Shown here: one piece after another, positions 23,891 to 39,855 of the stretch
Position numbering within the stretch: the stretch's first letter is position 1
Layout: each line of letters opens with the position of its first letter
NCBI GenBank assembly: GCA_042577045.1
Contig: JBHPEK010000003.1
Span: 1-57,171 of the forward strand
Direction of reading: 5' to 3'
Length of the DNA: 57,171 bases
From: Patescibacteria group bacterium
GTDB lineage: Bacteria > Patescibacteriota > Minisyncoccia > JAHISW01 > Tagabacteraceae
The notes under the pieces: generated by a model
Databases searched by the model: none
Seen by the model: the letters and a program-made list of their open reading frames with translations, nothing else
Told to the model about the DNA's origin: nothing
Translations under genes and position numbers: made by a program

Positions 23891-24124
23891 TTACTCTTTT
23901 TCAATAGTATCAAGTCGAGCGTTAACACTATCAAACCCGTCTTCCATTCGCCTTTCAATTTTATCAAATCGTTTATCAACACCGTCAAAACGTTTGTCAA
24001 CTTGCTCAAAACGTTTATCAACACCGTCAAAACGTTTGTCAACTTGCTCAAAACGTTTATCAACACCGTCAAAGCCCTTCTTGACCATTCCTGCAAGTCC
24101 TTCAATTGTTGTTACTTTTTTCAT
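23891..24124 (-). CDS. Small coiled-coil protein with tandem heptads (VDKRF[ED][QG]) x5
   Basis: Of the overlapping ORFs, this frame gives a coherent heptad-repeat protein. The underlying repeat is a 42-nt (2 x 21) DNA tandem at about 23950-24070. Confidence 0.5.
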   Translation of the reverse strand: MKKVTTIEGLAGMVKKGFDGVDKRFEQVDKRFDGVDKRFEQVDKRFDGVDKRFDKIERRMEDGFDSVNARLDTIEKE

Positions 24125-24155
24125 AATTCTATTTTAACAAAATAGCAAAATTTGT

Positions 24156-27100
24156 CTAATCGGTTGGTGTAGTCGTAGCAACTGGTTCTGGTTCTGGTTC
24201 AATTATAACTTCTGGAGTCGTCGTCGCTTGAGATTCATCTTCTTCAGCTTCAGCCCCGATGCTTTCCAGAATCTCCGATTCTGTGAAAGATCGAGGGTCT
24301 TCGACCCCGCCAGGGGCGGGCGTCGGGAGTTCAGGTTCTTCGTTGGTTATTGTTTCTTGGTTATTGATTATTATCACCTCTCTTGTGGTGATCCCTGTGT
24401 TTCCAGCTTGATCTGTAGCGGTAAATGTTATTGTGTGAGTTGTGGTAGTTGAAGTGTCTAAACTAAGTTCGTTTGGATATATCTCTGGTCCATCGTTTAG
24501 AATTACTTTGTAACCTAGGTTGGTGTCTACATTATCTGTAATAGTGGCTCCCATGTCGCTGTAGGTGGCATTAAGATCTAGATTTGCAGGGTTGTTACCG
24601 AGCAACTCTATAACAGGCGGTTCAGAATCCGGGGAAACATCCGATGTCGAGGAGGAGTCTGTTTCGGACGACGGGAGCACATCGGATGTTGAGGAGGATT
24701 CAGTCGGGGTCGTCGTCGTAGATTCAAGCCCTGCGTTCAATAGCAATTCTTTTAGTTGTTCTTCATTTATACAAGTACTTCCAACACAAACCTCGTCATC
24801 TACAAAGAGACTTTTTACTGTCAATATCTTATCCCTCAACCACTCAAGAAGTGTATCAAAAATTGAAGTTGTACTTGGCACACCTGCCTGTCCGGCAGGC
24901 AGGCTTGTTGTGGTAAGTCCAACTTCAAGGGATTGAAGTCTTAGCTCTAAGTCGTCAATCTTTTTCTGCTGTTCTTGAACACCAGCCAAAACAAATGTTG
25001 TTAGTTTGTAGAGGTCTACACCTTTACCATCCAAACTTAAAATCTCTATCGGCGCTTCTTCGGCAATTAAACCTAATCGTAAAGGTGTTTGGTTATTGTC
25101 TCTTGTATCTTGGTCATTGAGATAGTTATACTTCGCTACTTTCATCTCTTTTATCTTGTCTAGCACGTCTGCCTTTTCTTCTTCATCAAGATACATAATG
25201 TCTTTCTTTGCTTCACGAGTAGAAATATTTACAAAACCTTCCGCAGCTACATCTCCAAGAACATGCAGTTTATATTCCGGAGTAGAAGTGCCTACCCCAA
25301 AGTCAGCTCCAATGCCTACATTTCCGTCCTCCCCAATGAACATAGAAGAAGCATCTACGTAATTGGATTGTCCAAGAATAATTAAGACTGAAATCCTGCC
25401 AGTTTTCCACCTCCCAGATTCTGAATCAAAAACCTCTTGAGTTTTGAGAGAGGGGTCGCTAGAAATAACATTATCTTCATTATCCTCTACAAATTCGAGA
25501 GGTGAGTTTTCGTCAAAATCTTCCATTGCAATACCCACAAATTCTTCCCCTTTCTCCGCTTTTTTTCCTACTCCTCTCAAAAGATTTGATAGAGAAATTT
25601 TATCGCCCGGTTCTATATTTCCATTCTCCAAAGTTATTTTAATTGGTACTCGACCAGTTAAAGCAATTCTTTCGGCATCATCTCCCTGATATTCTGCTCC
25701 CATTGTGAGATGAGGATTTGTAGAAACAGCACCTAAAATAGTGTTATTTTGAGCCGTACGGCATCTTGCTACCTTATTTGACTCAGATATAGAGCAAACA
25801 ATGTCACCAGGCTCTAGCGTTGATTTGCCTTCTGCAGATAAATTTACTTGCGCTACCTTAAACCACTCTGCTACGTCAACCGCTCCTCCACTTCGCGAAG
25901 TGGCATAAATATTTCCGTCAGTATTTGTTTGAGGACAAGATCCATCGGATAAAATACACACCTTTGCGCCACCATATACATCTAAAGTACGAACTGGACT
26001 CGTCGTGCCGATGCCGACGTTGCCGTTAGCATCAACTGTCATATCAATATTTGCTGCGCTTCTTGCTATATAAAATTTTCCTGCCACATGCCTCAAAACA
26101 GCATCACCGGCAACATCACCAGTAACAAGCTTATTAGAATCTGACGCTGCCCCTAAAAGAACTCCCTCGCTACTGCCTGTGTAATTTCCAGCAAAAGACG
26201 GGGAGTTATTACCTATCAAAATACTACCAGCGTATTGTGTAGTAGAATATACATCAAGTAGTGCCCCCGGACTCGTCGTCCCGATGCCGACGTTGCCGCC
26301 GTTGTCTATTGTCATTTGCTCCGTGCTGACCGTCCAAAAACTCATTTCATCTCCATCATGATTATAAACCACTCTACCTTGTGCAGGAGCGGCTTGACCA
26401 TCTCCGAAATATAAGTTACCTCTCTCGTCAGTAGCGGTCAAGATAGTAATGCCAGTTTGCCCACTTCCTTCTACTACAAATTCATCAGCATTTGTCCCTA
26501 GAGTTGAACCACCACCAGTACCTGTTTTAACATGAAAAGGTGCTAAAGGCCCCGTCGTCCCGATGCCGACGTTGCCGTTATCTAAAACCGTAAACTTTGG
26601 ACTATCATTGCTATCAGCTATGACAAACGCTCTTCCTGTGGTTGTGCCATCTCCCGTGATAGACAATTTACCCCACGGAGTGGTAGACCCGATGCCGACG
26701 TTGCCTGAACTCCCCTGTATGGTCATTATTGTAGATGGGGTAGTTGAACCTGCCATGAAAACTATATCTCTATCTAAACTTGTTCTTGGTTGCAGAACTA
26801 AATGTCCAAAAGCATCAAAAGGATAAGTCCCTCCATCTGTTCCGCTTCGATATATATATGGGCTGCCATCATTTGTTGGCACAGATTCTAAACCAGCTAA
26901 GAATTTTAATGATGAGCCAGTCCCTGATATTTGTATTGTCCCTTCAACATCTAACTTTGTATCAGGACTCGCCGTCCCGATGCCGACGTTGCCCGCAGTT
27001 GCGTCGACGAAAAAGACGTCCGACGACCCTGCTTCTCCGACCCTAAAGTCCCCATCCACGTCCAGCAGATATGCTGGACTGGTGGTCCCGATGCCGACGT

Positions 27101-30100: not shown

Positions 30101-33100
30101 CTTGCAGTAAAGCTGCAGGTGTCGAAGTGCCGACACCAACGTTGCCCTTCAAGTACGCAGTACCACTGCCATCAATTTTAAAGAAATCTGTTCCCGCAGT
30201 ACTCTCAACTAAAAGAGAATTATCTGATGAATCAACGCCTGCAGTAATAAGCAAACCGCTACTCTGGCCGGCGGTAATGTCTAAATTTTGAATCGTAAAT
30301 GTTGGAGTAGAATTATTCGCAATGAAATTTGTAGCCGTGGCTATAAACTTACCACTACCGTCTATTGTGAATAGATCATTACCCGCAGTACTCTCAACTA
30401 AAAGAGAATTATCTGATGAATCAACGCCTGCAGTAATAAGCAAACCGCTACTCTGGCCGGCGGTAATGTCTAAATTTTGAATCGTAAATGTTGGAGTAGA
30501 ATTATTCGCAATGAAATTTGTAGCCGTGGCTATAAACTTACCACTACCGTCTATTGTGAATAGATCATTACCCGCAGTACTCTCAACTAAAAGAGATTTA
30601 TCTGATGTGTTGACGCCTGCAGTAATAAGCAAACCGCTACTCTGAGCATCATTAATATCCTGATTATTAATGTGTACCAGTGGATTAGATGAATTTGCAA
30701 CAAAATTTGGTGCAACGATATGAAGAATTTTACCTGGAGTCGTTGTCCCTAATCCTAATTCCCCATCTGTAGCATCATAGAAAAATCCATTGTAGTTAGC
30801 TCCTTCGGCAAACCTAACGTCGCCATCTACTTCTAAAACCGCTGCCGGACTCGTCGTCCCGATGCCGACGTTGCCGCCATTGAAATACGACGTTGCACCT
30901 GCATTAATATTCACTCCTGTGTCCCCATTACTATCATAAAACCAAGCAACACCATTGTTATCAGTACCTCCGATTGTAACAGACCCATATCCACTTATTC
31001 CTTGCTCATAGTCATCAACAACCAATCTTCCTCCATATAAATGTAATTGATGGTCTGGACTCGTTGTCCCGATGCCGACGTTACCGTCATTTGCTAAAAC
31101 CAATTGATCGATATTTTGAGCAGTAGAAGAGTATGTATATAATTTCATTATAGAAGGTACATAATTGCCAGCGGCCCCATCTTGTATTACATCAATAACA
31201 GCTCCTTTATCAAAATTATTTCCACTATCCACACCACGAAATTGGATAGCAGCTAAACTATCGCCATCTTGTGTCGTTGAAACTGTTCCTACAGTATCAC
31301 TATCAGAAGTTCTTAAAATTAACAATTGATAATCACCAGGAGCAGTAGCATAAGTAGTTCCATAAATAACTCCATCATCAGCAGATGTTACAACCTCAAA
31401 TTTACTACTCGGACTCGTCGTCCCGATGCCGATGTTGCCGTCGGATTGGATACGCACCTTTTCGCTTGCCGTTCCCGCTGTGGTTGGCATGAAAACTAAG
31501 TCACCTGTATTATCTGCTCCAGCCCTTACTCCTCCAATGTACCCCAACATACCAGACGCATTTACTGTCGAAGCATCATTGGTAGCATCAGCCATATCAA
31601 AGACAATACCTGAACCAAATCCATCAACCGCATCTCCCGTACTTTTGTGAACAAAATGTGCTCCAGCCCTCAAGGCATTTGTTATGGCTGTGCTCCTTTG
31701 GAACCAAAAATCTTCATACTCTGTTCCAGTAATGCTTAGTTTTCCAATTGGCGTCGTCGTCCCGATGCCGACGTTGCCGTCATGATTTATCCGCATCCTT
31801 TCCGTTGCTACTGCACTATCATCAGTTCCATCAGCTTTTATCTTAAATACCAAATAACCACCCTTAGCAGTAGCGGAATGGTCTTGCGAAGCGTAACCTT
31901 CAATTGAAACAGAAGCATCTACTGAACTTGCCTTATCAACTGCATCAAACATCAGTCGCCCTAAAAGGTTACCAGCTTCAGTTGTAGCATCAAATCTTTC
32001 AAGTAAAATATCTGCTGCATCTGTAACTACAAATTTACGATTTGGCGCCACCTTCCCGATGCCGACGTTGCCGTCATCTAACACCACCATTTTGGGGCTA
32101 TCATTACTATCTGCGACTAAAAATGCTCTCGTGGTATTGCCTGTTCCAGAGCTTGTAACGGCTAATACTGCAAATGGACTCGTCGTACCGATGCCGACGT
32201 TGCCGCCATTGTTAATGTAACTATCTGTTCCAGAGTCAGCATGAAATTGAATTTTTAATGCTCCCGAAGAATCCCTTATACCGAAATTACCATCCCCCGA
32301 ACCATCTGTACCCATATTTACAACCCTTACACCTGAGACAGCATTACTCAAAACAATCCCATCTGAACCATCTGTTGACTGTTCAACCTCTAATTCGAAA
32401 GAAGGCGTCGTCGTTCCGATGCCGACGTTGCCGTCTCCTGTAAATGTAACTCTATCACCATCCGTACCTTCTGTTCCATAAAATCTTAAATCATCACCAC
32501 TAGTGTAAATTTCGTATACATTAGCTCCACCCTTAGACAGTTGTAAATTGCCCCCGTTTACCCCATCTACACGTATCTGAGTAGTTCCGGCGGTACCACT
32601 AAACAATGCAGTGGGAAAAGCAGTACTTTCTACATGTAATGGGTGGTCCGGACTCGTCGTCCCGATGCCGACGTTGCCGTTTCCTAAGACTGTCACCAAT
32701 TCCGTCCCGAAATTATACAACTGAAAGACCGTTTCAGAAGCCCCCAATGCTTCCCAACCTGTCCCATCTTTTTTCGCACCAGCCATAAGTATTGCAGGAA
32801 TAGTATCAGTCGGGTCAGTATCGCCAATGATTCCATATATTTCTAAGCCACTATCGTCTGTGTCTGACAAACCCCAAATTGCCATTCCTCCTTGAGTCGC
32901 TTGTGCAACATTAAACTGCCCAAATGCATTTGTTGGTAATAGAGTTGTCATTCCATGAGCTACATCATTATCACTTAAAATAAGATTTCCATCAAAAACA
33001 TCCAACAACGCCCCTGGACTCGTCGTCCCGATGCCGACGTTGCCGTCTGAACCTTGGACAAAGAGAGCCGTTCCTGAATCCCAATTGATAGTCGTATCTG

Positions 33101-36100
33101 CATCTACACTCCCACCATTTATAATTACATTACCACCAGATGACACACTGAATCGTTCAACACCAGCGTTTTTAACAGCTAAAAGAGCTTCATCATTGTC
33201 ATTATCATTAGCATCTATTAAGACTCCTGCTCCATCGGTATCATCATTATCAAAAATCCCAGCCCACGCATTGGTATATGAACCCATAATGTGAAGCGCG
33301 GCGGCTGGTGCTGCTTTTCCTATCCCCACATTTCCTGAAAAATATCCAGCTCCGTGAACTGCAAACAGTTGACTTGGACTCGTCGTCCCGATGCCGACGT
33401 TGCCGTTGTTGTCAATCGTTACTACATCACTATTATCATAACCTCTTATAAATAATTTTTGGACATTAGCGTCATAAGTTAATCCAGCTTCAGCAGTATC
33501 GCCACTATCTCCAAACTGAAGTTCAGAATAACCCCCAACATCAGAAGTCAATCTGAATCTGGGATTTGTGTTTCTAATTTGCAAATCACTATCTGGACTC
33601 GTTGTGCCGATGCCGACGTTGCCGTTCGCATCCACTACCATAATTCCCTGATTAGTAGAAGAAGCTATCTGAAAAAATGGAATAGTTGCATCAAGGACAT
33701 TATTTATAACCAAACCGTATTTAGGCGTTGTTGTACCGATGCCGACGTTGCCCCATTGGTCTATTCTCATTCGCTCTCGGAGCACCATTGAACTCCATGT
33801 TTCTTGTGTGCCAAATGTAAGGTGTGACCCAAGACCATAGGCTGTCCCAGAAATAGCTCTGACATAAGCCGAGGTTCTATTACCTACATCCGCATCTCCA
33901 TTATAGAAATCTAATCCTCCAACCAAGACGCCGTTGTCCATGGTAGTATCTGAAGTGCCAAGCATTATTGTTGGCCCAGTAGCTTGGATAAGTGATAATT
34001 CCGTCATAGGCGTAGTCGTACCGATGCCGACGTTGCCGTTGGTAAATAAGAAATCACCTGTACCTGTTGTTTGGAAATCAATATCTGCGCCACTTACTTC
34101 ATTTAAAATATCCATATCTGAATTAGCAGCACTACCCCATCCTAAATAACCAAGACGAGTTCCATTATTCATTACTACTTCTAAAAATCCCGAAGCACTA
34201 ACACCATCAACTGTATCTTGCAATTGAATAACTGGCACTGCGTTATCTATATGCAAAGCCCGTTGTGGCGCCGTCGTCCCGATGCCGACGTTGCCGTCTG
34301 AACCTTGAACAAAAATAGAAGGTGTTGCTGAATTTGGAAAAACTATAAAATCACTATCAACTTGACCTTCATTAAATGTTATGTCAGAAGCACTTAAAGA
34401 CATCATTTTGTTATCACCAGTCCTTTCCCATATTGCAAACTCATCCCCATCACTTCCTATGTCAGCATAACCTTCGCTGTTTTCCATTCTTATTCTTGTT
34501 GAACCTGCTGTTGTTGTTAAGACATGAAGATTTTTTTGTGGACTCGTCGTACCGATGCCGACGTTGCCGCCACTTACTTGTAGAACCAATGGTACAGCAG
34601 CACCATCATAATTCCAAGACTGGACACTTCCATAGCTTTCAGCATCGTTTGCTGCGATATGAACAGCTACTCCAGAACTATCAGCGTCTTTTCTACCAAT
34701 TGTTACCCCAAACCCATCAGTTGGACTATAAAAATTAGCAATCTTTGTACTTGCCGCACCGACAACTTCTAATTTAGATAATGGACTCGTCGTCCCGATG
34801 CCGACGTTGCCTGTACTTGTGATTCTCATTCTTTCAAAAGTATAAGGAGAGGTATCATTGTTTGCGACTTCAAAAGCTAAATACCCATCAACATCATTGT
34901 CGTTACTGTTTTCCTTTTTGCCATGGATTTTAGCAAAATCAACAAGAGCCCCAGTAGTTATATATTTACCACCTAACGCAAGTGACCCACCCACATTAAT
35001 TGCCGCAGCATCACTAGTTGATATATATAAATTCCCATGGTCATTACTAACTGCACCAACTGCTATATTTGCACCGAGTACATGTAATAATTCCGCTGGA
35101 CTCGTCGTCCCGATGCCGACGTTGCCGGAACCACCATCTACAAAGAATTTACTCGTTCCTACTGAAAAGTCTGCTCCTATGGCGTGTGAACCAGTTGTAG
35201 TGGCATTTCCTGTTGTGGTAGCGTTTCCTGTAACACTCAGACTTCCTATCGTGGCAAGTGTGGCATTGAAATCCGCTATCGTCCCTAAGCTTGTTAATGA
35301 CGAAGCAACGACTGAACTACCTAAAGTTGTCGCTGAAAGAATATTGGCGTCATTGATTAGATAAACAGAGCCGGTTGGAATATTGATATTTCCCGTAGAT
35401 AGAGTTAATCCTCCACTGAAAGTAGATGTGGCATTGTTTCCAAGTATAGTAGTCGTCGCTGTTCCTCCAACATACAAAGTATCAAAGACTGAAAGTCTGG
35501 TTGTTGACGCTTGAACGAAAGCAAGAAGATCCGGAAGATCTAAAGTGACTGTTCCATCTCCGTCATCAGTTACAGTAAGTTCGTTTGCTGTGCCTGTTAT
35601 CCACGAATTGATATCTGTGTCTGTAATGATTTTGTTTGAGTCTAGAGAAAGAAGTCTAGACGCGTTTAGATTTTGCAGAGTAGTGTTGCGAGAGACAAGA
35701 AGATCGGTGGTGGAAGCAGTGGTAACGGTGACCATCGTAGTTGAGGCGTATGGAAAAGTAGAAGCCACAGTAGTAGATGTAGCGGTGTAATAGTTTGCTG
35801 AAATGTCTTGATTGAAAACTCCTCGTCCGTCCACGGCTAATTTGGCATATGGTGAAGTGGTTCCAATTCCCACATTCCCATCCGAACTAATAAATATTGT
35901 AGAAGTAGCTTGGGCTATACCACTATCATCTCCAATGATGAAGTTTCCTTTTGTTAGAGCAATGTCTGTTACTGAAATACTACCAGATGGAAAATCTACC
36001 CAAGATGTCGCTTGAAGACCTGTGGTTGTTAAATATGGAAGAGTTGAGGTAGATGTAGTAGTGGCTGTAAAATATGCAGAGACTGTTTCTCCGACAACAG

Positions 36101-37904
36101 ACAATTTGGCATATGGAGAGGTAGAACCAATACCGACGTTGTTATTGTATGAATCTACAAAAAGAGTGTTGGTGTCTACAATAAAATCATCATTGACGGT
36201 AGTGGTTGCGTTAAAGGTGGTAAGACCTGTGTAGTTTTGTGTTCCTCCCACGGAGAAGTTGCCGACCACAGACAAGTTTCCACCAACGGAACCCTCACCA
36301 GAAGTTGAAAATGTTTCTAAGTCTGCATTTCCTGAGACTATTGGTGTGGAGATAGTTGGTGTCGCTATGGTTGGTCGATTGATATAGCTGACTATTTGGG
36401 TTTGGGCTAGTTTTTGCGTATTAGATTCAAATTTTCTTAAAAGTTCTTTTTTAACATCTTCTACCTGAGACAAAAGGTGTAAATTTAAAGTATCTAATTT
36501 GGTATCAACTTCGGCCTCTGTTAATTCAGAAAGAATTTTTTCAACAGTATGCTCTACAACTGTTTGGGTAACTTTTACTCCTGATGTCTGTAAAAAGTCT
36601 AATTCTGACCTAATGTCTTTTATTAAATCCGTTTCTGTCTCTCCTATTCTTTCATCTTTTTCTTTATAAACAAAATTTTTGGTAGTTCTCTGCAACTCAT
36701 CAACCCACCCAAGAACTACTTCCTTCACATTATGCGGGAATAGTACATAGCTGTCCTTTATCTCTTTGGATACTATTCTTGTAAGATTTTTTGTTTTTCC
36801 AGCATACCCCTTAACCTCTCTCCCAAAATCAACAATATTTTCCGTCGTAACTTCTGCAAAATCCTTTGTTCCCTCAACAGCGTTTGATATTGTGGCTGAC
36901 CAGTTGGTATGAGAAACACTTAAACCATCTGATGTAAAACGAAAACTATCTTTGACCGGCGGATTCATAGCCAAAGCTATTTTAGATCGGACATTTTTCT
37001 CAACTTCTCTTAGCTCTATTTGTGGCAAGGAAACAATATCTAATGGGGCAATTTTAAGTCCGGCAATGTCGTCATTTGGAGAACCTACGACTTTGTAATA
37101 AATATCTATCTGTTTGTCGTAAACGATTTCCTGCAACTCACCCTTGTCTAGAAGATTTTTAAGACCAGAAATTTTTATATAGACAAAGTTAACTCCACCA
37201 TCAAACTTACTACTAACACCCAAAGAAATTTCTTCAAATCTGTTGGCAACTTTTTCACGTAATGCCAACGAATTCTGATAAAAACTTTTTCTATCCACAA
37301 ACGATTTTATTTTATAAGAAAAATTTTCTACACTGCGCATTGACCTTGCCAAAGGATTAGCAACAATGTCCAGGTTTTCCGCAAATGAAAAAATATTTTT
37401 TTGAGTATCATTAGTAAAACTTATCACCGAGTCTTTGGCGGAGGCTATAATTTTTTTAGAAAAATTTGAAAAACTAAATCCAGAAGCTTGAACCGTCGTG
37501 TAAAAAACAATGAGAGATAAAATTGCAAAAGAAGTGACAAAAATTTTCTTCCCACCAAAAACGTGGCTTCTAACTGGAACTGGAGCTGGAGGCTCTGGAG
37601 GCTCTTGAAGACCTTGAGGCTTTGGAAAAATTTTTTCAATTACCCCATTATTATTCTTGTATGCCTTTTCAACTTCTTTTTGATAATTTTCTATCCACTC
37701 TTTTTTTGTAAGCCATCTTTTTCCAACCCTTTCAGACTTTAATTTGCCTTGGCGACAAAGCAAACCCAAGTGATGTTGAGTGTATCCAAAGGATTTAGAT
37801 GCAACTTTTAACGAGATCAAATCCTCGTCTTTTTCAACACCATTGTCGGGACAAATTGGTGCATCTTCAACATTATGAATTTTTTGAATATCTGGCTTAA
37901 CCAT
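24156..37904 (-). CDS. Giant (4,582 aa) membrane-anchored surface protein: N-terminal HTH, 1 TM, coiled region, ~43 tail-fibre-like GNVGIGTTSP repeats, S74-type intramolecular chaperone domain, DUF5011-like Ig domain, acidic tail
   Basis: Uninterrupted 13.7-kb ORF. The HTH-like segment is aa ~28-72 (nt 37689-37823). The TM helix is aa ~121-139. The motif G-N-V-G-I-G-T-T-S-P-x-x-x-L-x-V recurs throughout. STREAKKDI...LGLIAEEAP...LAGVQEQQKKIDDLE lies at nt ~24925-25225. PPVIELLGNNPANLDLNATYSDMGATITDNVD lies at nt ~24355-24625. Confidence 0.9.
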   Translation of the reverse strand: MVKPDIQKIHNVEDAPICPDNGVEKDEDLISLKVASKSFGYTQHHLGLLCRQGKLKSERVGKRWLTKKEWIENYQKEVEKAYKNNNGVIEKIFPKPQGLQEPPEPPAPVPVRSHVFGGKKIFVTSFAILSLIVFYTTVQASGFSFSNFSKKIIASAKDSVISFTNDTQKNIFSFAENLDIVANPLARSMRSVENFSYKIKSFVDRKSFYQNSLALREKVANRFEEISLGVSSKFDGGVNFVYIKISGLKNLLDKGELQEIVYDKQIDIYYKVVGSPNDDIAGLKIAPLDIVSLPQIELREVEKNVRSKIALAMNPPVKDSFRFTSDGLSVSHTNWSATISNAVEGTKDFAEVTTENIVDFGREVKGYAGKTKNLTRIVSKEIKDSYVLFPHNVKEVVLGWVDELQRTTKNFVYKEKDERIGETETDLIKDIRSELDFLQTSGVKVTQTVVEHTVEKILSELTEAEVDTKLDTLNLHLLSQVEDVKKELLRKFESNTQKLAQTQIVSYINRPTIATPTISTPIVSGNADLETFSTSGEGSVGGNLSVVGNFSVGGTQNYTGLTTFNATTTVNDDFIVDTNTLFVDSYNNNVGIGSTSPYAKLSVVGETVSAYFTATTTSTSTLPYLTTTGLQATSWVDFPSGSISVTDIALTKGNFIIGDDSGIAQATSTIFISSDGNVGIGTTSPYAKLAVDGRGVFNQDISANYYTATSTTVASTFPYASTTMVTVTTASTTDLLVSRNTTLQNLNASRLLSLDSNKIITDTDINSWITGTANELTVTDDGDGTVTLDLPDLLAFVQASTTRLSVFDTLYVGGTATTTILGNNATSTFSGGLTLSTGNINIPTGSVYLINDANILSATTLGSSVVASSLTSLGTIADFNATLATIGSLSVTGNATTTGNATTTGSHAIGADFSVGTSKFFVDGGSGNVGIGTTSPAELLHVLGANIAVGAVSNDHGNLYISTSDAAAINVGGSLALGGKYITTGALVDFAKIHGKKENSNDNDVDGYLAFEVANNDTSPYTFERMRITSTGNVGIGTTSPLSKLEVVGAASTKIANFYSPTDGFGVTIGRKDADSSGVAVHIAANDAESYGSVQSWNYDGAAVPLVLQVSGGNVGIGTTSPQKNLHVLTTTAGSTRIRMENSEGYADIGSDGDEFAIWERTGDNKMMSLSASDITFNEGQVDSDFIVFPNSATPSIFVQGSDGNVGIGTTAPQRALHIDNAVPVIQLQDTVDGVSASGFLEVVMNNGTRLGYLGWGSAANSDMDILNEVSGADIDFQTTGTGDFLFTNGNVGIGTTTPMTELSLIQATGPTIMLGTSDTTMDNGVLVGGLDFYNGDADVGNRTSAYVRAISGTAYGLGSHLTFGTQETWSSMVLRERMRIDQWGNVGIGTTTPKYGLVINNVLDATIPFFQIASSTNQGIMVVDANGNVGIGTTSPDSDLQIRNTNPRFRLTSDVGGYSELQFGDSGDTAEAGLTYDANVQKLFIRGYDNSDVVTIDNNGNVGIGTTSPSQLFAVHGAGYFSGNVGIGKAAPAAALHIMGSYTNAWAGIFDNDDTDGAGVLIDANDNDNDEALLAVKNAGVERFSVSSGGNVIINGGSVDADTTINWDSGTALFVQGSDGNVGIGTTSPGALLDVFDGNLILSDNDVAHGMTTLLPTNAFGQFNVAQATQGGMAIWGLSDTDDSGLEIYGIIGDTDPTDTIPAILMAGAKKDGTGWEALGASETVFQLYNFGTELVTVLGNGNVGIGTTSPDHPLHVESTAFPTALFSGTAGTTQIRVDGVNGGNLQLSKGGANVYEIYTSGDDLRFYGTEGTDGDRVTFTGDGNVGIGTTTPSFELEVEQSTDGSDGIVLSNAVSGVRVVNMGTDGSGDGNFGIRDSSGALKIQFHADSGTDSYINNGGNVGIGTTSPFAVLAVTSSGTGNTTRAFLVADSNDSPKMVVLDDGNVGIGKVAPNRKFVVTDAADILLERFDATTEAGNLLGRLMFDAVDKASSVDASVSIEGYASQDHSATAKGGYLVFKIKADGTDDSAVATERMRINHDGNVGIGTTTPIGKLSITGTEYEDFWFQRSTAITNALRAGAHFVHKSTGDAVDGFGSGIVFDMADATNDASTVNASGMLGYIGGVRAGADNTGDLVFMPTTAGTASEKVRIQSDGNIGIGTTSPSSKFEVVTSADDGVIYGTTYATAPGDYQLLILRTSDSDTVGTVSTTQDGDSLAAIQFRGVDSGNNFDKGAVIDVIQDGAAGNYVPSIMKLYTYSSTAQNIDQLVLANDGNVGIGTTSPDHQLHLYGGRLVVDDYEQGISGYGSVTIGGTDNNGVAWFYDSNGDTGVNINAGATSYFNGGNVGIGTTSPAAVLEVDGDVRFAEGANYNGFFYDATDGELGLGTTTPGKILHIVAPNFVANSSNPLVHINNQDINDAQSSGLLITAGVNTSDKSLLVESTAGNDLFTIDGSGKFIATATNFIANNSTPTFTIQNLDITAGQSSGLLITAGVDSSDNSLLVESTAGNDLFTIDGSGKFIATATNFIANNSTPTFTIQNLDITAGQSSGLLITAGVDSSDNSLLVESTAGTDFFKIDGSGTAYLKGNVGVGTSTPAALLQVLSAGTAPQLILTDSSGGSDLKHMYASSTLGSLAFGEYDDALSIYTERFRIDASGNIGIGTTSPQGILHVMGNAVDMILERTTADVYPFVIQGRKARGVGTVVNDNDQLLRIDGRAHDGTDYGTTPARILFEVDDAAPTGSSIGGAIAFSTAAGAGADDITEVMRIDNNGNVGIGSTSPWGLLSVNSPGATNPFVIGSSTTQFIVTDTGSVGIGTANPAYNLDVTGSLGASGNIVSTGYYYTYNGTVYSKTLTDSGDYDYYIDLNNTTKSMVTAGNVGIGTTSPAYLLDVDGGFRVGTTTNANQLVVDPDSGKVGIGTTSPWGLLSVNSPGGINPFVIGSSTTQFIVLENGSVGIGTEAPTGKLLVIGDRNATLGNLSQGVLNIISADGPYINEHISLNFAAGDTNTNAVASIALKWTAADVLGKGDLLFSTRNVTSDTAPTERMRITTDGNVGIGSTSPWGLLSVNSPGATNPFVIGSSTTQFIVTDTGSVGIGTANPAYNLDVTGSLGASGNIVSTGYYYTYNGTVYSKTLTDSGDYDYYIDLNNTTKSMVTAGNVGIGTTSPAYLLDVDGDFRVGEAGSSDVFFVDATAGNVGIGTTSPWGLLAVEQGTETNSFVVSNSGSSTPSFVVSGVNGNGHVGIGTAAPDHILHIRQTNDGGSTDIELLNSAAPGSTDETTRIQFSQTTGVSAGAIIAGREDTYLSSATSDSYLAFLTALDQVPTEWMRITSAGNVGIGTTSPLSTLSIEAGNAKALSLYRAGDVILEMTGAGTVGNSWRLEIENDTGDFEIQDDTAETVPFVIERSSGNVGIGLIDPSHILTTAVNNNSYIHLLNASNSLGTPYTGILLSNYALPSTYVKAGIFFKMTESNRNRGQLQFALDPNDSNSNVQSDIDTNTVMTINYSGNVGIGTTGPDTKLEVISNNAQTTDEDVIKISMNGAPWNAGVYRGIAWSDSSHTAANPYGAIRLEPNAGGDWNMDFLTTTDTGATQTQVMRLTDNGNVGIGTTSPAYLLDVDGDFRVGEAGSSDVFFVDATAGNVGIGTASPDTKLDVEGTIQISGTGSSLKFLAGLESVPTNDGSPYIYRSGTDGGTYPFDAFGHLVLQPRTSLDRDIVFMAGSTTPSTIMTIQGSSGNVGIGSTTPWGKLSITGDGTTTGRAFVIADSNDSPKFTVLDNGNVGIGTTGPLAPFHVKTGTGGGSTLGTNADEFVVEGSGQTGITILTATDERGNLYFGDGQAAPAQGRVVYNHDGDEMSFWTVSTEQMTIDNGGNVGIGTTSPGALLDVYSTTQYAGSILIGNNSPSFAGNYTGSSEGVLLGAASDSNKLVTGDVAGDAVLRHVAGKFYIARSAANIDMTVDANGNVGIGTTSPVRTLDVYGGAKVCILSDGSCPQTNTDGNIYATSRSGGAVDVAEWFKVAQVNLSAEGKSTLEPGDIVCSISESNKVARCRTAQNNTILGAVSTNPHLTMGAEYQGDDAERIALTGRVPIKITLENGNIEPGDKISLSNLLRGVGKKAEKGEEFVGIAMEDFDENSPLEFVEDNEDNVISSDPSLKTQEVFDSESGRWKTGRISVLIILGQSNYVDASSMFIGEDGNVGIGADFGVGTSTPEYKLHVLGDVAAEGFVNISTREAKKDIMYLDEEEKADVLDKIKEMKVAKYNYLNDQDTRDNNQTPLRLGLIAEEAPIEILSLDGKGVDLYKLTTFVLAGVQEQQKKIDDLELRLQSLEVGLTTTSLPAGQAGVPSTTSIFDTLLEWLRDKILTVKSLFVDDEVCVGSTCINEEQLKELLLNAGLESTTTTPTESSSTSDVLPSSETDSSSTSDVSPDSEPPVIELLGNNPANLDLNATYSDMGATITDNVDTNLGYKVILNDGPEIYPNELSLDTSTTTTHTITFTATDQAGNTGITTREVIIINNQETITNEEPELPTPAPGGVEDPRSFTESEILESIGAEAEEDESQATTTPEVIIEPEPEPVATTTPTD
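24883..24910. repeat. GC-rich hairpin element CCTGCC-n-GGCAGG+CAGGCTTGTTG, copy embedded in the giant ORF (encodes TSLPAGQAG)
   Basis: It shares an exact 17-mer and the hairpin arms with 10552-10578. Confidence 0.75.
26965..27105. repeat. 141-nt intragenic repeat, copy 1
   Basis: It matches 28297-28437 with 1 mismatch by eye, offset 1332 nt (in frame). Confidence 0.85.
28297..28437. repeat. 141-nt intragenic repeat, copy 2
   Basis: See 26965-27105. Confidence 0.85.
28419..28753. repeat. 335-nt intragenic repeat, copy A
   Basis: It matches 29262-29596 with 1 mismatch by eye, offset 843 nt (in frame). Confidence 0.85.
29262..29596. repeat. 335-nt intragenic repeat, copy B
   Basis: See 28419-28753. 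Confidence 0.85.
30193..30570. repeat. Two identical tandem 189-nt (63-codon) units, with degenerate units on both sides (~30140-30760)
   Basis: CCCGCAGTACTCTCAAC... restarts at 30193, 30382 and 30571. The first two units are identical by eye. Confidence 0.9.
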
Positions 37905-38074
37905 AAGGTTTTATATCCTATATTTTACAGTAAAGTTAACAAAAAAAGTATAAGAAAATTTTTAAAAAACAAGCCAAAATCTTTTCAATTTCTTTTAAAT
38001 GAATATACTGCTAAACAATAGGCGTGAAACTCTGCGTGTAACAATACAAAAAAGCCCCAACTTAGGGCAAATTA

Positions 38075-38757: not shown

Positions 38758-39183
38758 CTACTTAACTTCTACCGTAGCTCCTGCTTCTTCCAATTTTTTC
38801 TTTAACTCTTCTGCTTCTTCTGGGCTCAAATTTTCTTTTATCATTTTAGGAGCACTATCAACCAATTCTTTGGCTTCTTTTAGACCCAGATCTAAAACCT
38901 CTTTGACAACCTTAATTACTTGAATTTTCTGATCACCAACAGCCTTTAACTCTACATTTTTTGGAACATCTTCGTCAGCACCCGCGTCAGAAGCAACTGC
39001 TTGCCCTGAACCTACCGAAGAAGCCATCATCTGCGCCGAAACACCAAACTTATCTTCTAAAATTTTAACTAATTCTGAAAGCTCTAGAACACTCATATTT
39101 TCTACTTGTTCAACGAGCGTTTTAAACTTTTCAGGAACTTCTACCGCAGTCCCCTTTTCTTCTTTTTTTATTTCTTCTGTCAT
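38758..39183 (-). CDS. rplL: 50S ribosomal protein L7/L12
   Basis: It has the L12 N-terminal dimerisation helix, an Ala/Gly hinge and a C-terminal domain ([10 protein letters not shown]...[10 protein letters not shown]). Confidence 0.95.
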
Positions 39184-39229
39184 AATAAATTTAGTTCTTA
39201 GTTCCTAGCCACTAGTGGCTAGTGGCTAA

Positions 39230-39748: not shown

Positions 39749-39855
39749 TGATTGTTTTTTAAGAAATAAATAATAAAAATAGCAGCTCAAATAGCCGCTA
39801 TTATTGTGTCTCAATAGGTCTTATGGAACGCCTATTTTCTGCGACTATTAATTAT

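What the first reader, a model, noticed from the sequence alone, without database searches (positions are those of the whole stretch)
24156..37904. Intact 4,582-aa gene: cytoplasmic HTH + single TM anchor + ~43 phage-tail-fibre-type repeats + internal S74 chaperone + Ig domain
Seen: the 13.7-kb reading frame is unbroken, which is about a quarter of this window. The N-terminus (SLKVASKSFGYTQHHLGLLCRQGKLKSERVGKRWLTKKEW) looks like an excisionase/MerR-type HTH, and it is followed by one hydrophobic helix. The extracellular part is built from the G-N-V-G-I-G-T-T-S-P-x-x-x-L-x-V unit, which I know from phage tail-fibre/tailspike proteins that end in a peptidase-S74 intramolecular chaperone. Such a domain is present near the C-terminus. 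No capsid, terminase, portal or integrase gene is nearby, so this is a cellular gene rather than a prophage remnant. Inference: it may be a very long trimeric fibre anchored in the membrane of a small-genome, probably episymbiotic, bacterium. In that case it would be a candidate host-attachment organelle whose cytoplasmic end could bind DNA. I know of no characterised protein with this full architecture.
Basis: partly seen in the sequence, partly recalled or inferred. Interest (0 to 1): 0.78.

Follow-up and report, generated by a model that had tools for sequence, protein, structure and literature searches.

The report
Giant membrane-anchored fibre of a CPR bacterium
This is a real 4,582-residue gene of a tiny Parcubacteria-type (CPR) bacterium that most likely builds a very long, three-stranded, phage-tail-fibre-like surface filament rooted in the cell membrane by a previously undescribed but very widespread helix-turn-helix anchor, so it is a strong candidate for how such bacteria grip their hosts.

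Summary
The ORF 24156-37904 (-) is unbroken and encodes 4,582 aa. It has 43 G-N-V-G-I-G-T-T-S-P-x3-L units, one hydrophobic helix (aa 120-141), a Peptidase_S74 domain (aa 4228-4297) and a DUF5011 Ig-like domain (aa 4432-4512). The neighbours are housekeeping genes of a Parcubacteria-like CPR genome, and no phage genes are present.

The repeat unit is the "capping loop" of the trimeric beta-helix fibres solved for the Bdellovibrio MAT adhesins.

The N-terminus is new. It is a MerR/excisionase-like winged HTH followed by a TM helix. This module heads thousands of CPR proteins, and every long one examined is also a capping-loop fibre. It is therefore a lineage-wide fibre anchor rather than a peculiarity of this gene. 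Whether it binds DNA is untested.

The C-terminal cassette (S74 with an invariant Ser-Lys dyad, a coiled coil, then the Ig domain) also recurs across CPR.

One finding was unexpected. The motif is conserved at synonymous sites as a 29-nt core (27 copies). The same codon preferences occur in 31 other CPR loci, and blocks of 100% identity switch exactly at these cores. This suggests in-frame module shuffling. It also marks the only places where the assembly could be wrong.

The parts
24156..37904 (-). Complete giant gene: 4,582 codons plus a stop.
   Evidence: a single ORF with an ATG start and no internal stop.
37677..37823 (-). Cytoplasmic MerR/excisionase-like winged HTH (aa ~28-76, net charge +7).
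   Evidence: Family alignment A1 has invariant L, Y, Q, RQGKL, W, T, W and Y. HTH_17 is hit by 6 of 9 members. The AF2 model has pLDDT >90 with beta-alpha-alpha-beta-beta-alpha topology. Foldseek matches Xis, RdfS, BldC, TraN and RacA at prob 0.97-0.99 and TM 0.6-0.77.
37482..37547 (-). The single transmembrane signal-anchor helix (aa 120-141, KIFVTSFAILSLIVFYTTVQAS).
   Evidence: It is the only strongly hydrophobic window in the protein. It is modelled as a helix. Homologues have an equivalent helix at this position.
36225..37481 (-). Juxtamembrane region (aa 142-560) with no known domain. It ends in a predicted coiled-coil or neck segment before the shaft.
   Evidence: No Pfam hit. It is weakly conserved in CPR relatives such as P0004 (27% identity over 96% of the query). 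Related proteins carry an equivalent 'ITKIEPIKEITKE' plus heptad segment.
25995..36224 (-). Fibre shaft (aa 561-3970): 42 modules delimited by the capping-loop motif GNVGIGTTSPxxxL.
   Evidence: The sequence matches the solved Bdellovibrio MAT beta-helix fibres 8oml, 8ond, 8ojn and 8on4 (E 9e-8 to 2e-3). It matches the PHROGs tail-fibre families. The motif equals the MAT capping-loop consensus.
25996..35126 (-). 27 copies of the 29-nt core GGCAACGTCGGCATCGGGACGACGAGTCC. This is the motif conserved at synonymous sites.
   Evidence: One search finds 27 matches with up to 3 mismatches, 9 of them exact, where 0 are expected.
26965..29622 (-). Mosaic zone of recent module duplications. 26965-27104 equals 28297-28436 (100%). 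28408-28751 equals 29251-29594 (100%). The identity blocks switch inside the 29-nt cores.
   Evidence: This is also the stretch where a short-read assembly could have permuted or collapsed modules.
30161..30727 (-). 189-nt (63-aa) tandem repeat with 3 copies. The first two are 95-98% identical and the third is 71-86% identical to the first.
25335..25937 (-). Distal beta-rich 'tip' domain (aa ~3990-4190). In homologues it resembles the first part of Peptidase_G2 / phi29 gp12.
   Evidence: The segment is conserved in A2/A3. Peptidase_G2 is hit only in homologues: P0212 at 26.1 bits against a cut-off of 25, P0217 at 24.7 bits and P0165 at 20.8 bits. A profile search gives a weak hit to 3gqh at E 0.32. 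The AF2 pLDDT is 84-91 for the core strands.
25266..25325 (-). Last, degenerate capping loop (GNVGIGADFGVGTSTPEYKLHV) immediately before the S74 domain.
   Evidence: It aligns to the MAT capping loops and to the MYRF ICA in the profile search.
25014..25223 (-). Peptidase_S74 intramolecular chaperone (aa 4228-4297). The putative catalytic residues are Ser4228 (25221-25223) and Lys4233 (25206-25208).
   Evidence: Pfam hits. The Ser and Lys are invariant in 25 of 25 and 18 of 18 aligned CPR homologues. Pfam places aa 4229 at profile position 2, whereas the canonical S74 of P0019 starts at position 1 with SDIRLK.
24909..25013 (-). Coiled-coil helix after the S74 domain (aa ~4298-4332).
   Evidence: The AF2 model has helix 328-362 in the fragment. 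The profile search gives weak hits to trimeric coiled coils.
24612..24728 (-). Ser/Thr-rich linker (aa ~4393-4431).
   Evidence: Read from the translation. The model has low pLDDT here.
24369..24611 (-). Bact_surface_Ig-like (DUF5011) domain (aa 4432-4512).
   Evidence: Pfam scores 30.5-33 bits against a cut-off of 27. AF2 pLDDT is ~90. Foldseek matches Big_3, PKD, Rib and SraP Ig-like domains. A profile search hits 2kpn at 7e-7.
24159..24368 (-). Acidic Pro/Thr/Glu-rich C-terminal tail (aa 4513-4582).
38054..38068 (-). Terminator-like hairpin followed by a T-run between the upstream ORF and the giant gene. It implies that the giant gene has its own transcription start.

Best explanation
The gene encodes a type-II (N-in, C-out) single-pass membrane protein of a Parcubacteria-like CPR bacterium.

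Proposed assembly and structure:
- About 4,440 residues are exported unfolded through Sec.
- Once the C-terminus is outside, the S74 intramolecular chaperone trimerises. It zips three chains into a beta-helical fibre of the phage-tail-fibre / Bdellovibrio MAT type.
- The 43 G-N-V-G-I-G-T-T-S-P-x3-L units are the edge 'capping loops' that punctuate successive beta-helix modules.
- Extrapolating from MAT fibres (0.4-0.7 A per residue), the shaft would be roughly 150-250 nm long, comparable to the diameter of the cell.
- The invariant Ser4228-Lys4233 dyad then probably cuts the chain. This frees or loosens a 355-residue cap (S74, coiled coil, Ig domain) and exposes the distal tip (the G2-like beta domain plus the last beta-helix cleft) for binding host or prey surface glycans.

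The base of the fibre is held by three TM helices and three small, basic MerR/excisionase-like winged-helix domains on the cytoplasmic face. This HTH-TM module is the CPR-wide counterpart of the conserved N-terminal anchor domain of MAT proteins. It most likely docks all such fibres onto one shared cytoplasmic ligand. I lean to DNA/nucleoid (~40%) over a conserved protein partner (~30%) or a simple 'rivet' (~20%).

At the DNA level, the motif is kept as a 29-nt in-frame core. I think this core serves as a junction for recombinational shuffling, duplication and loss of modules.

Shown: the ORF, the domains, the homologies, the family distributions, the conserved dyad, the codon conservation and the mosaic blocks. 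Inferred: the topology, the trimer, the cleavage, the fibre length, the adhesive role, the HTH ligand and the recombination mechanism.
For: - ORF and repeats.
- Shaft: it is homologous to the solved MAT fibres beyond the motif itself. For example, aa 2032-2184 aligns with Bd2133 residues 11-162. The MAT paper defines the capping-loop consensus V-G-G/N-pi-x-x-P-x-x-x-L, shows S74 autocleavage at an SDxxxK motif, shows surface location and shows glycan binding.
- S74: it passes the Pfam threshold. The Ser and Lys are invariant in all aligned CPR homologues.
- C-terminal cassette: it is conserved in 89 database proteins, nearly all from CPR, named 'tail fiber domain-containing' or 'DUF5011 domain-containing'.
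- N-terminal module: a profile search finds 5,031 cluster representatives at E<=1e-3, 1,876 at <=1e-10 and 151 at <=1e-30, often with 2-3 tandem copies. At least 525 loci occur in GTDB species genomes, and the best 80 are almost all Patescibacteria. All 21 long (>850 aa) proteins examined that carry it contain 1-35 capping-loop motifs.
- HTH fold.
- Charge asymmetry: the HTH core has net charge +7 and the whole protein -276.
- Housekeeping context and CPR identity: there is a 23S rRNA group I intron and the 16S and 23S genes are unlinked. RpoB is 77-83% identical to Patescibacteria/Tagabacteria proteins.
- DNA cores and mosaic blocks.
Against: - No trimer model could be computed. The monomer model of the C-terminal region is poor (mean pLDDT 58).
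- The S74 Pfam score is only just above threshold, and the domain is internal rather than terminal.
- HTH_17 is below threshold for this protein, and the Foldseek E-values for the short domain are only 0.1-0.3.
- The charges immediately flanking the TM helix do not discriminate the orientation (+1 before, +3 after). No dedicated topology predictor was available.
- There are no expression, localisation or binding data for any CPR member, and I found no literature on them.
- The mosaic 100%-identity blocks could in part reflect assembly choices.
- The exact protein is not in the protein collection, although its neighbours are.
Confidence: 0.7

Rival explanations
1. Membrane-tethered transcription factor. 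The fibre senses host contact or tension, and the HTH then acts on DNA. It could act while tethered, as in ToxR/CadC, or after regulated proteolysis, as in MYRF (which also uses an S74 domain) or RIP systems.
For: The N-terminal domain has the fold of DNA-binding MerR/Xis proteins and is strongly basic. MYRF combines a DNA-binding domain, an S74 domain and a TM helix, and the C-terminal profile weakly matches the MYRF ICA (7dc3, E 0.017).
Against: Nearly the same HTH sequence (RQGKLKA..GRNW.TKKEW) sits on thousands of proteins with different ectodomains, and is often duplicated in tandem. Specific regulators would be expected to diverge in the recognition helix. Here the S74 domain lies on the opposite side of the membrane from the HTH and ~4,100 residues away, so its cleavage cannot release the HTH. 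No site-2-protease-type partner was seen in the window.
Confidence: 0.12
2. Structural envelope component. The fibre acts as a spacer, fibrous coat or S-layer-like palisade rather than a specific adhesin. It keeps distance, forms a glycocalyx-like brush, or protects against phages and predators.
For: The shaft is extremely long and highly acidic (net charge -276). The family is ubiquitous in CPR, with variable length and many paralogues. No recognisable lectin-type tip was found in this protein.
Against: The closest characterised relatives (MAT fibres, phage fibres and tailspikes) are receptor-binding proteins. The distal end carries conserved, specialised domains, and the module mosaicism resembles that of receptor-binding proteins.
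Confidence: 0.12
3. Assembly artefact. The giant ORF, or at least its module number and order, results from collapse or mis-joining of repeats in a short-read metagenome assembly.
For: Exact repeats of 140 nt and ~344 nt, plus a 189-nt tandem array, lie inside the gene. The identity blocks switch at shared 29-nt cores. Most database homologues are partial and cut by contig ends. The exact protein is not on record.
Against: Outside roughly 26.9-30.8 kb the modules are only 60-70% identical at the DNA level, so they are unique for an assembler. An open frame of 13.7 kb cannot arise by chance. Any rearrangement at the cores stays in frame. Independent genomes encode the same architecture at similar size (P0013 at 4,310 aa, P0019, P0071). 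Both ends of the gene are contiguous with unique housekeeping genes.
Confidence: 0.1
4. Phage-derived gene. It would be a remnant of a prophage, or a recently captured phage tail-fibre gene with no cellular function.
For: There are strong matches to the PHROGs tail-fibre families and an S74 domain. IS200-like transposase genes lie 3 kb downstream and elsewhere in the window. The GC content of the gene (41-46%) is above that of the flanks (33-39%).
Against: There are no phage structural, packaging or integration genes in 57 kb. The gene sits between rplL and the 23S rRNA gene on the same strand as all its neighbours. It has an N-terminal HTH plus TM anchor that is typical of CPR cellular proteins. 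Similarity to sequenced phages is only 26-29% identity over parts of the query. The higher GC content is explained by the Gly/Thr/Ala-rich composition.
Confidence: 0.03

Closest known systems
Bdellovibrio bacteriovorus MAT (mosaic adhesive trimer) fibres, S74 subgroup (e.g. Bd3182; structures 8oml, 8ond, 8ojn, 8on4, 8ol4; Caulton et al., Nat Microbiol 2024, PMC10769870)
   Same: Both are cellular (non-phage) surface fibres of a bacterium that lives on other bacteria. Both have a trimeric beta-helix shaft punctuated by the same capping-loop motif. There is direct sequence similarity (E down to 9e-8). Both have an S74 chaperone/protease after the shaft, mosaic modular evolution and a conserved N-terminal anchoring module.
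   Different: MATs are ~650-1,900 aa, have a cleaved signal peptide and a ~130-aa beta-rich N-terminal domain, and belong to a diderm. This protein is 4,582 aa. It is anchored by an uncleaved TM helix with a cytoplasmic winged HTH, has a ~420-aa juxtamembrane region, and continues for ~285 aa beyond the S74 domain (coiled coil, Cys hairpin, S/T linker, Ig domain). CPR members are not listed in that paper's survey.
Phage tail fibres and tailspikes with a C-terminal intramolecular chaperone (K1F/NF endosialidase, T5 pb1; Peptidase_S74)
   Same: Both have an S74 domain with a Ser-Lys dyad directly after a triple beta-helix. There are matches to the PHROGs tail-fibre families (3e-124). Folding from the C-terminus and self-cleavage is the accepted mechanism.
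   Different: This protein is not part of a virion. It is membrane-anchored, several times longer, and its S74 domain is internal and followed by an Ig domain. It is only 26-29% identical to proteins of sequenced phages.
MYRF (myelin regulatory factor) and its ICA domain
   Same: Both are single-pass membrane proteins that combine a DNA-binding-type domain, an S74-type trimerising autoprotease and the capping-loop feature. There is a weak profile match (7dc3, E 0.017).
   Different: In MYRF the DNA-binding domain and the S74 domain are adjacent and on the same side of the membrane, so cleavage releases the transcription factor. Here they lie on opposite sides of the membrane and ~4,100 residues apart.
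Bitopic proteins with a cytoplasmic N-terminal HTH (RodZ; ToxR/CadC), and small MerR/excisionase-fold DNA binders (Xis, RdfS, BldC, TraN, RacA)
   Same: The topology is the same: N-terminal HTH, one TM helix, external domain. The fold matches Xis/BldC/RacA (TM-score 0.6-0.77 normalised to the target). BldC and Xis bind DNA as head-to-tail arrays, which fits the tandem HTH copies seen in relatives. RodZ shows that such an HTH can instead bind a protein (MreB).
   Different: No curated family covers this module (HTH_17 and TIGR01764 are both below threshold). It is attached to giant extracellular fibres, and neither DNA binding nor a protein partner has been shown.
Trimeric autotransporter adhesins (YadA, BadA) and other giant bacterial adhesins
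   Same: They are functional analogues: very long, repetitive, trimeric surface fibres whose C-terminal element drives trimerisation and which mediate attachment.
   Different: They have an unrelated fold and unrelated sequence and are anchored by an outer-membrane beta-barrel. This protein has no matches to their families.

Membership tests
Peptidase_S74 (intramolecular chaperone of endosialidase type) | A match to PF13884 at or above the gathering score. | tested here: met
   23.1 bits against 22 on the whole protein and 26.5 bits on the C-terminal fragment. This is marginal, but many CPR homologues of the same cassette carry precomputed PF13884 hits.
Peptidase_S74 (intramolecular chaperone of endosialidase type) | A catalytic Ser-x4-Lys dyad (SDxxxK) at the start of the domain. 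| tested here: met
   S4228-T-R-E-A-K4233. The Ser and Lys are invariant in the alignments of 25 and 18 sequences. The register is fixed by the Pfam coordinates (aa 4229 = profile position 2) against P0019 (S2533 = position 1). BLAST places a 1-residue gap differently. Asp is replaced by Thr.
Peptidase_S74 (intramolecular chaperone of endosialidase type) | The domain lies at the extreme C-terminus and is removed by autocleavage. | tested here: not met
   About 285 further residues follow the S74 domain (the 355-residue post-cleavage fragment spans S4228 to the end), comprising a coiled coil, a linker and an Ig domain. Cleavage itself cannot be tested here.
MAT superfamily (Bdellovibrio mosaic adhesive trimers) | Repeated capping-loop motif V-G-G/N-pi-x-x-P-x-x-x-L on a beta-helical shaft, with sequence similarity to solved members. 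| tested here: met
   43 copies. phmmer hits to 8oml, 8ond, 8ojn and 8on4 range from E 9e-8 to 2e-3 and extend beyond the motif. The consensus comes from PMC10769870.
MAT superfamily (Bdellovibrio mosaic adhesive trimers) | A signal peptide followed by the conserved ~130-aa beta-rich N-terminal domain present in all 21 MATs. | tested here: not met
   The N-terminus is instead an HTH plus a TM anchor plus a region with no known domain. A homology search with aa 1-554 returned 8 hits, all sharing the conserved HTH-TM module; the only one carrying a source name is from Minisyncoccales, a CPR order. No direct comparison with a MAT N-domain sequence was made.
MAT superfamily (Bdellovibrio mosaic adhesive trimers) | Homotrimeric assembly along the whole fibre. 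| not testable with these tools
   Only monomer prediction was available. The monomer model of the C-terminal 547 aa has a mean pLDDT of 58.
HTH_17 / excisionase (MerR superfamily) DNA-binding domain | A match to PF12728 or TIGR01764 at the curated threshold. | tested here: not met
   This protein gives E 0.16 and 12.7 bits against a cut-off of 27. Among relatives, 6 of 9 hit with a best E of 3.3e-5. TIGR01764 scores 21.9 bits against 28.8 on P0003.
HTH_17 / excisionase (MerR superfamily) DNA-binding domain | The winged-helix fold: beta1-alpha1-alpha2-beta2-beta3(-alpha3). | tested here: met
   In the AF2 model the elements are E17-19, H20-27, H31-40, E46-48, E51-55 and H56-80, at pLDDT 92-95. 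The best-probability Foldseek hits are 8dgl, 4j2n, 6ama/6amk, 4p0z and 5i44, with rmsd 1.2-2.8 A. The E-values are weak (0.1-0.3) because the domain is short.
HTH_17 / excisionase (MerR superfamily) DNA-binding domain | Binds DNA. | not testable with these tools
   The only indirect evidence is the net charge of +7 and the tandem copies in relatives.
Bact_surface_Ig-like (DUF5011) | A match to PF16403 above threshold and an Ig-like beta-sandwich fold. | tested here: met
   30.5-33 bits against a cut-off of 27. pLDDT is ~90 and Foldseek matches Big_3/PKD/Rib domains.
Peptidase_G2 (phi29 gp12-type auto-chaperone) | A match to PF11962 in the pre-S74 'tip' domain. | tested here: inconclusive
   There is no hit for this protein at E<=1. 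Homologues of the same segment hit only part of the profile (positions 16-101 of 228): P0212 at 26.1 bits against 25, P0217 at 24.7 bits and P0165 at 20.8 bits. The hit to 3gqh has E 0.32.
Prophage / phage tail module | Neighbouring capsid, portal, terminase, tail or integrase genes. | tested here: not met
   Pfam scans of the 30 largest neighbouring ORFs found only housekeeping genes and IS200-like genes.

The most novel reading that the evidence does not exclude
The HTH-TM module and the 29-nt core together form a previously unrecognised CPR system for building and varying host-contact fibres.

(a) The conserved winged HTH physically couples the base of every fibre to DNA. It may even bind the direct-repeat 29-nt cores of its own gene while the 13.7-kb message is being transcribed, translated and inserted (transertion). 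Alternatively, it relays host contact to the nucleoid.

(b) The synonymous-site-conserved core, shared across CPR genomes, is a dedicated in-frame recombination joint. It lets modules be swapped within and between fibre genes, giving programmed variation of length and specificity, analogous to the cassette systems of vlsE or pilE.
Probability: 0.12. Interest if true: 0.88.

Novelty: new variant of a known kind. Interest (0 to 1): 0.62.

Why it matters
All cultivated CPR/Patescibacteria are obligate epibionts. Apart from type IV pili, the molecules that find and hold their hosts are essentially unknown.

This work links a large, unannotated class of CPR proteins to a fibre type whose structure, self-processing and adhesive role have been established experimentally in Bdellovibrio and in phages. 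These proteins are labelled in databases, if at all, as 'tail fiber domain-containing', 'DUF5011' or 'hypothetical'.

It also defines the anchor of these proteins: a winged HTH plus a TM helix that heads thousands of CPR protein clusters and appears to be undescribed. This yields concrete, testable targets for host-range determinants in CPR, and a sequence handle (the N-terminal module) for finding them in any genome.

Finally, it gives a possible DNA-level mechanism for their diversification, based on the conserved 29-nt joints. If the HTH really binds DNA, this would be an unusual direct link between an extracellular organelle and the nucleoid.

Tried and rejected
- **Pfam HTH call on the protein alone.** It was not significant, so I turned to family and structural evidence.
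- **Single-sequence PDB search of the C-terminal 612 aa.** It found nothing useful. The profile search did.
- **Foldseek of the C-terminal model.** It recovered only the Ig domain. The S74 and tip parts were modelled too poorly as a monomer.
- **Looking up the exact protein in public assemblies.** It is not on record. The neighbouring proteins are singletons from one 57,171-nt NCBI contig, so no names were obtained.
- **Context of relatives.** L081 is a frameshift-ridden long contig and L082 sits in a mobile-element-like neighbourhood. Neither helped to test synteny or length polymorphism.
- **Literature searches for CPR tail-fibre-like or HTH-anchored surface proteins.** Nothing relevant was found.
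- **RNA hairpin as the reason for the 29-nt conservation.** Rejected (z = -0.34).
- **'Optimal codon' explanation for the core.** Rejected as sufficient. The rare codons GGG and ACG are enriched 4-5-fold, and the Pro codon next to the core is unbiased.
- **Prophage origin.** Rejected on context.
- **A second copy of the HTH-TM module in the window.** None found.
- **NCBIfam.** No family covers the protein, the module or the neighbouring 1,192-aa ORF.
- **ORFs inside or next to the 23S gene.** No homing-endonuclease domain was found.

Full report
**1. The observation**

The window carries a single uninterrupted reading frame at 24156..37904 on the minus strand, with an ATG start and 4,582 codons. 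A frame of this length cannot stay open by chance. The start codon is supported by the N-terminal peptide MVKPDIQKI, which is shared with a database relative (P0002). A terminator-like hairpin at 38068-38054 separates the gene from the upstream ORF.

A strict pattern finds 41 copies of G-[NSKH]-[VI]-G-[IV]-G. A looser pattern that requires the downstream Pro and hydrophobic residue finds exactly 43, between aa 588 and 4213, spaced 23-251 residues apart.

Only one segment is strongly hydrophobic, at aa ~115-141.

Pfam confirms Peptidase_S74 at aa 4229-4284 (23.1 bits against a cut-off of 22, and 26.5 bits on the fragment). It also confirms Bact_surface_Ig-like/DUF5011 at aa 4432-4512 (30.5-33 bits against 27). 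PHROGs tail-fibre families match at 3e-124 and 9e-91.

The HTH is the one element that a direct HMM search did not confirm (HTH_17 E=0.16). It needed the further work described in section 4.

**2. Where the gene sits**

All substantial genes in the 57-kb window lie on the minus strand and are housekeeping genes. In coordinate order they are:

- rpoC, rpoB, a HAD hydrolase, an MBL-fold protein, secF, secD and ftsW/rodA
- 5S and 23S rRNA
- an IS200-like gene, an MscS-like protein and a PD-(D/E)XK protein
- the giant gene
- a small ORF, rplL, rplJ, an aminotransferase, a TPR protein and an orphan 1,192-aa ORF
- a DeoR-HTH protein, tRNA-Ile and 16S rRNA
- an amidase, glycosidases, trmD and smc

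 No phage structural, packaging or integration gene is present.

The 23S gene carries a group I intron, and the 16S and 23S genes are ~26 kb apart. Both features are frequent in CPR bacteria (my own knowledge). RpoB is 77-83% identical to proteins from Patescibacteria MAGs, and the named relatives are Tagabacteria, Pacebacteria, Giovannonibacteria and Niyogibacteria. The organism is therefore a Parcubacteria-type CPR bacterium.

The window is a whole NCBI contig. Its proteins are singletons in the 15-billion-protein collection, and the giant protein itself is not recorded there.

**3. What the repeats are**

A sequence search of the PDB with the whole protein hits four Bdellovibrio bacteriovorus 'cell wall surface anchor family' structures: 8oml, 8ond (Bd2133), 8ojn and 8on4, with E from 9e-8 to 2e-3. 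The alignments run through whole modules, not only the motif. For example, aa 2032-2184 aligns with Bd2133 residues 11-162.

These structures are the MAT (mosaic adhesive trimer) fibres of Caulton et al. 2024 (PMC10769870). They are intertwined trimeric beta-helices on the predator's surface whose edges carry repeated 'capping loops' with consensus V-G-G/N-pi-x-x-P-x-x-x-L. Thirteen of the 21 MATs end in an S74 domain that self-cleaves at an SDxxxK motif. One MAT binds prey glycans.

The unit G-N-V-G-I-G-T-T-S-P-x3-L is exactly this capping loop.

Similarity to proteins of sequenced phages is remote (26-29% identity to Pelagibacter and Synechococcus phage proteins).

Scaling from the published dimensions gives a shaft of roughly 150-250 nm for the ~3,650 residues between aa 560 and 4227. 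The reference values are ~550 A for Bd3182, which has 782 residues up to its S782 self-cleavage site (922 aa as encoded), and ~145 A for 370 residues of Bd2133. This is an extrapolation, not a result.

**4. The N-terminus**

A homology search with aa 1-554 returned eight proteins. One is named as from Minisyncoccales, a CPR order. All share a ~50-residue module followed, after a variable linker, by a hydrophobic helix. Their alignment (A1) has invariant L, Y, Q, R-Q-G-K-L, W, T, W and Y, and six of the nine sequences hit Pfam HTH_17 (best E 3.3e-5).

An AlphaFold model built on this alignment gives beta-alpha-alpha-beta-beta-alpha at pLDDT 92-95, followed by a transmembrane helix. Its highest-probability structural neighbours are the RdfS and Pukovnik excisionases, BldC, TraN and RacA. 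The probabilities are 0.97-0.99, the TM-scores 0.6-0.77 on the target, and the rmsd 1.2-2.8 A. The E-values are only 0.1-0.3 because the domain is short. So the fold is that of a MerR/excisionase winged helix, although the curated family thresholds are not reached.

A profile search of 1.84 billion cluster representatives found 5,031 proteins at E<=1e-3, 1,876 at <=1e-10 and 151 at <=1e-30. Many of them carry two or three tandem copies, and their lengths range from ~100 to 6,890 aa. The weakest of these matches will include ordinary excisionases.

A scan of GTDB species genomes confirmed at least 525 loci. The best 80 are almost all Patescibacteria MAGs: Parcubacteria, Nealson-, Pacei-, Wildermuth-, Portnoy-, Komeili-, Torok- and Gribaldobacteria. 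The exceptions are one Omnitrophica MAG and three MAGs labelled Gammaproteobacteria.

All 21 long (>850 aa) proteins that I retrieved with this N-terminus contain capping-loop motifs, from 1 to 35 copies. P0013 (4,310 aa; 3 HTH copies, TM, 35 motifs, an 'NLSTKDAKTGI' S74-type site and a C-terminal extension) is a near replica of the present architecture. P0019 (2,823 aa) has a canonical S74 scoring 79.8 bits. P0003 (910 aa) is a miniature version.

The HTH-TM module is therefore the standard base of CPR fibres. It takes the place of the conserved N-terminal domain of the Bdellovibrio MATs. Only one such module occurs in this window.

Topology was not tested with a dedicated predictor. The N-in, C-out reading rests on four points:

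- the absence of a signal peptide
- the folded basic HTH (net +7) against an ectodomain with net charge -276
- the single TM segment
- the extracellular nature of every recognisable C-terminal domain

**5. The C-terminal cassette**

A search with aa 3971-4517 found 89 proteins. Nearly all are from CPR (Niyogi-, Taylor- and Kaiserbacteria, Paceibacterota, Parcubacteria). Many are 'partial', being cut by contig ends, and carry names such as 'tail fiber domain-containing' or 'DUF5011 domain-containing'.

In the alignments A2/A3, the segment V-x-G-D-V-A-A-x-x-F-V-N-I-S-T-R-x-A-K-K-D-I ... P-L-R-L-G-L-I-A-E-E-A-P ... G-K-G-V-D-L-Y-K-L is almost invariant. Ser258 and Lys263 of the fragment (= S4228 and K4233 of the protein) are conserved in every sequence.

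The Pfam coordinates put aa 4229 at profile position 2. The canonical S74 of P0019 starts at position 1 with S-D-I-R-L-K. So S4228...K4233 corresponds to the catalytic SDxxxK, with Thr in place of Asp. A BLAST pairwise alignment shifts the register by one residue, so this assignment is likely but not certain.

A profile search of the PDB also touches the MYRF ICA domain (7dc3, E 0.017), MAT fibres (8ond, 1e-7) and an Ig-like Big_3 domain (2kpn, 7e-7).

After the S74 domain come, in order:

- a long helix (coiled coil)
- a short Cys-containing hairpin
- a Ser/Thr-rich linker
- the Ig-like domain, modelled at pLDDT ~90 and matching Big_3, PKD, Rib and SraP domains
- an acidic tail

Before the S74 domain lies a beta-rich domain (aa ~3990-4190). 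In homologues it resembles the first part of Peptidase_G2, the phi29 gp12 auto-chaperone: P0212 scores 26.1 bits against 25, and the others fall just below threshold. There is also a weak hit to 3gqh at E 0.32. For this protein itself the G2 assignment is inconclusive.

In several relatives this slot is occupied by a second, canonical S74 domain. The position in front of the conserved 'NISTR-S74 + coiled coil + Ig' cassette is therefore a variable tip.

If the dyad is active, cleavage would leave the fibre (aa 1-4227) in the membrane. It would free or loosen a 355-residue trimeric cap that carries three Ig domains. What this cap does after cleavage is open. It may be discarded, act as a transient protective cap as described for some phage fibres, or act as a secreted factor.

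**6. An unexpected DNA-level feature**

The motif is conserved at synonymous sites. At each of the first five codons, 31-33 of the 41 copies use the same codon: GGC AAC GTC GGC ATC. These are minority codons in the gene overall (GGC 23% of Gly, GTC 23% of Val, ATC 21% of Ile). The next four codons, GGG ACG ACG AGT, are each used by 22-26 of the 41 copies (ACG is 22% of Thr in the gene). The adjacent Pro codon is unbiased.

The 29-nt core GGCAACGTCGGCATCGGGACGACGAGTCC occurs 27 times with up to 3 mismatches, 9 of them exact. All copies lie inside the gene in the coding orientation, where none is expected by chance. The DNA between the cores is only 60-70% identical from module to module.

The bias is not private to this gene. 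I examined 33 ORFs from 31 other CPR loci, with 76 motif instances in total. The same codons are enriched in the motif relative to the rest of the same ORFs:

| Codon (position in motif) | Frequency in motif | Background in same ORFs |
|---|---|---|
| GGC (1st codon) | 71% | 29% |
| GTC | 50% | 16% |
| GGC (4th codon) | 58% | 29% |
| ATC | 47% | 18% |
| GGG | 49% | 11% |
| ACG | 45% | 10% |

Copies within one ORF are not independent, so these are descriptive numbers. Because rare codons are among those enriched, an 'optimal codon' effect is not enough. The core has no unusual RNA structure (z = -0.34).

Within the gene, blocks of 100% identity begin and end exactly in the cores. Segment 28297-28436 equals 26965-27104. 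From the next core, 28408-28751 equals 29251-29594.

I read the cores as in-frame joints at which modules are duplicated, lost or exchanged by homologous recombination. The comparison is with the short conserved repeats that flank cassettes in antigenic-variation systems such as vlsE (my own knowledge, offered as an analogy only). The alternative is that part of this pattern reflects how a short-read assembler threaded exact repeats. Either way, the frame stays open.

**7. Assembly caveat**

The only stretches where collapse or permutation is plausible are 26.9-29.6 kb (exact repeats of 140 and ~344 nt) and the 189-nt tandem array at 30161-30727. The rest of the gene is unique at the DNA level and is flanked by unique genes. 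Independent genomes encode equally large proteins with the same layout. The existence of the giant gene is safe, but the exact module count and order need long reads.

**8. Verdict**

Two corrections apply:

1. The shaft-plus-S74 design is already characterised in Bdellovibrio MAT adhesins.
2. The HTH-TM anchor is a general, CPR-wide module, not a unique fusion.

What appears to be new is the following:

- the extension of MAT-type fibres to CPR bacteria at four to five times the size
- the winged-HTH/TM anchor family, for which I found no literature and no curated model
- the conserved post-S74 coiled-coil/Ig cassette
- the synonymous-site-conserved 29-nt joints

The adhesive function, trimerisation, cleavage, topology and the ligand of the HTH are inferences. 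Direct tests are listed under decisive next steps.

Noticed in passing
window 16705-20117 (23S), 17734-18017 (intron), 46451-48049 (16S), 46197-46269 (tRNA-Ile), 16555-16662 (5S): The 23S rRNA gene contains a group I intron. At 3,413 nt it is ~490 nt longer than the model, so it holds at least one further insertion. The 16S gene (with tRNA-Ile) lies ~26 kb away from the 23S-5S pair, and the giant gene and the ribosomal-protein genes lie in between.
   Followed up: partly
window 38758-39814 (rplL, rplJ) versus 57-6948 (rpoC, rpoB): The usually contiguous rplJL-rpoBC cluster is split by ~32 kb. The intervening DNA contains the giant gene, the 23S/5S rRNA genes, secDF and ftsW, all on the same strand.
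   Followed up: no
window 20369-21025 and 50612-51313: There are two IS200-like (Y1 transposase) genes. One lies 3 kb downstream of the giant gene. They are the only mobile-element signatures in the window.
   Followed up: no
window 41543-45121: A 1,192-aa ORF has no Pfam or NCBIfam match and is a singleton cluster in the protein collection. It is an orphan large protein two genes upstream of rplJ.
   Followed up: partly
window 25996-35126; loci L001-L082: The capping-loop motif is conserved at synonymous sites as a 29-nt core (27 copies here). The same codon preferences, including the rare codons GGG and ACG, recur in 31 other CPR loci. No RNA structure explains it.
   Followed up: yes
window 26965-29622: Blocks of 100% DNA identity between distant modules start and stop exactly in the 29-nt cores, giving a mosaic pattern. 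This indicates either recent recombination at the cores or a place where the assembly may have permuted modules.
   Followed up: yes
related proteins P0107, P0042, P0162, P0212: Several CPR fibre proteins carry intein-like (Hint / Intein_splicing) insertions directly after a capping-loop motif (for example ...GNVGIGTTAPAAPLHVTGQCVTGDT...HNT). These are inteins inside surface-fibre genes.
   Followed up: no
related proteins P0166, P0167, P0175, P0177, P0190, P0195, P0197: Some relatives have two S74-type domains in tandem. A canonical 'SSxRFKxNI' S74 sits in the slot that the G2-like tip domain occupies here, followed by the conserved 'NISTR' S74, coiled coil and Ig cassette.
   Followed up: partly
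window 24001-36000 versus flanks: The GC content of the giant gene (41-46%) is clearly above that of the neighbouring genes (33-39%). This is probably a consequence of the Gly/Thr/Ala/Asp-rich composition rather than foreign origin.
   Followed up: partly
locus L082 (JGI 3300022539, contig Ga0247426_1000207): The 910-aa miniature relative P0003 lies next to a phage-type integrase, TIR-domain genes, a 1,068-aa Ig-domain protein and a TrwB/TraG-like coupling protein. Some family members may therefore travel on mobile elements.
   Followed up: no
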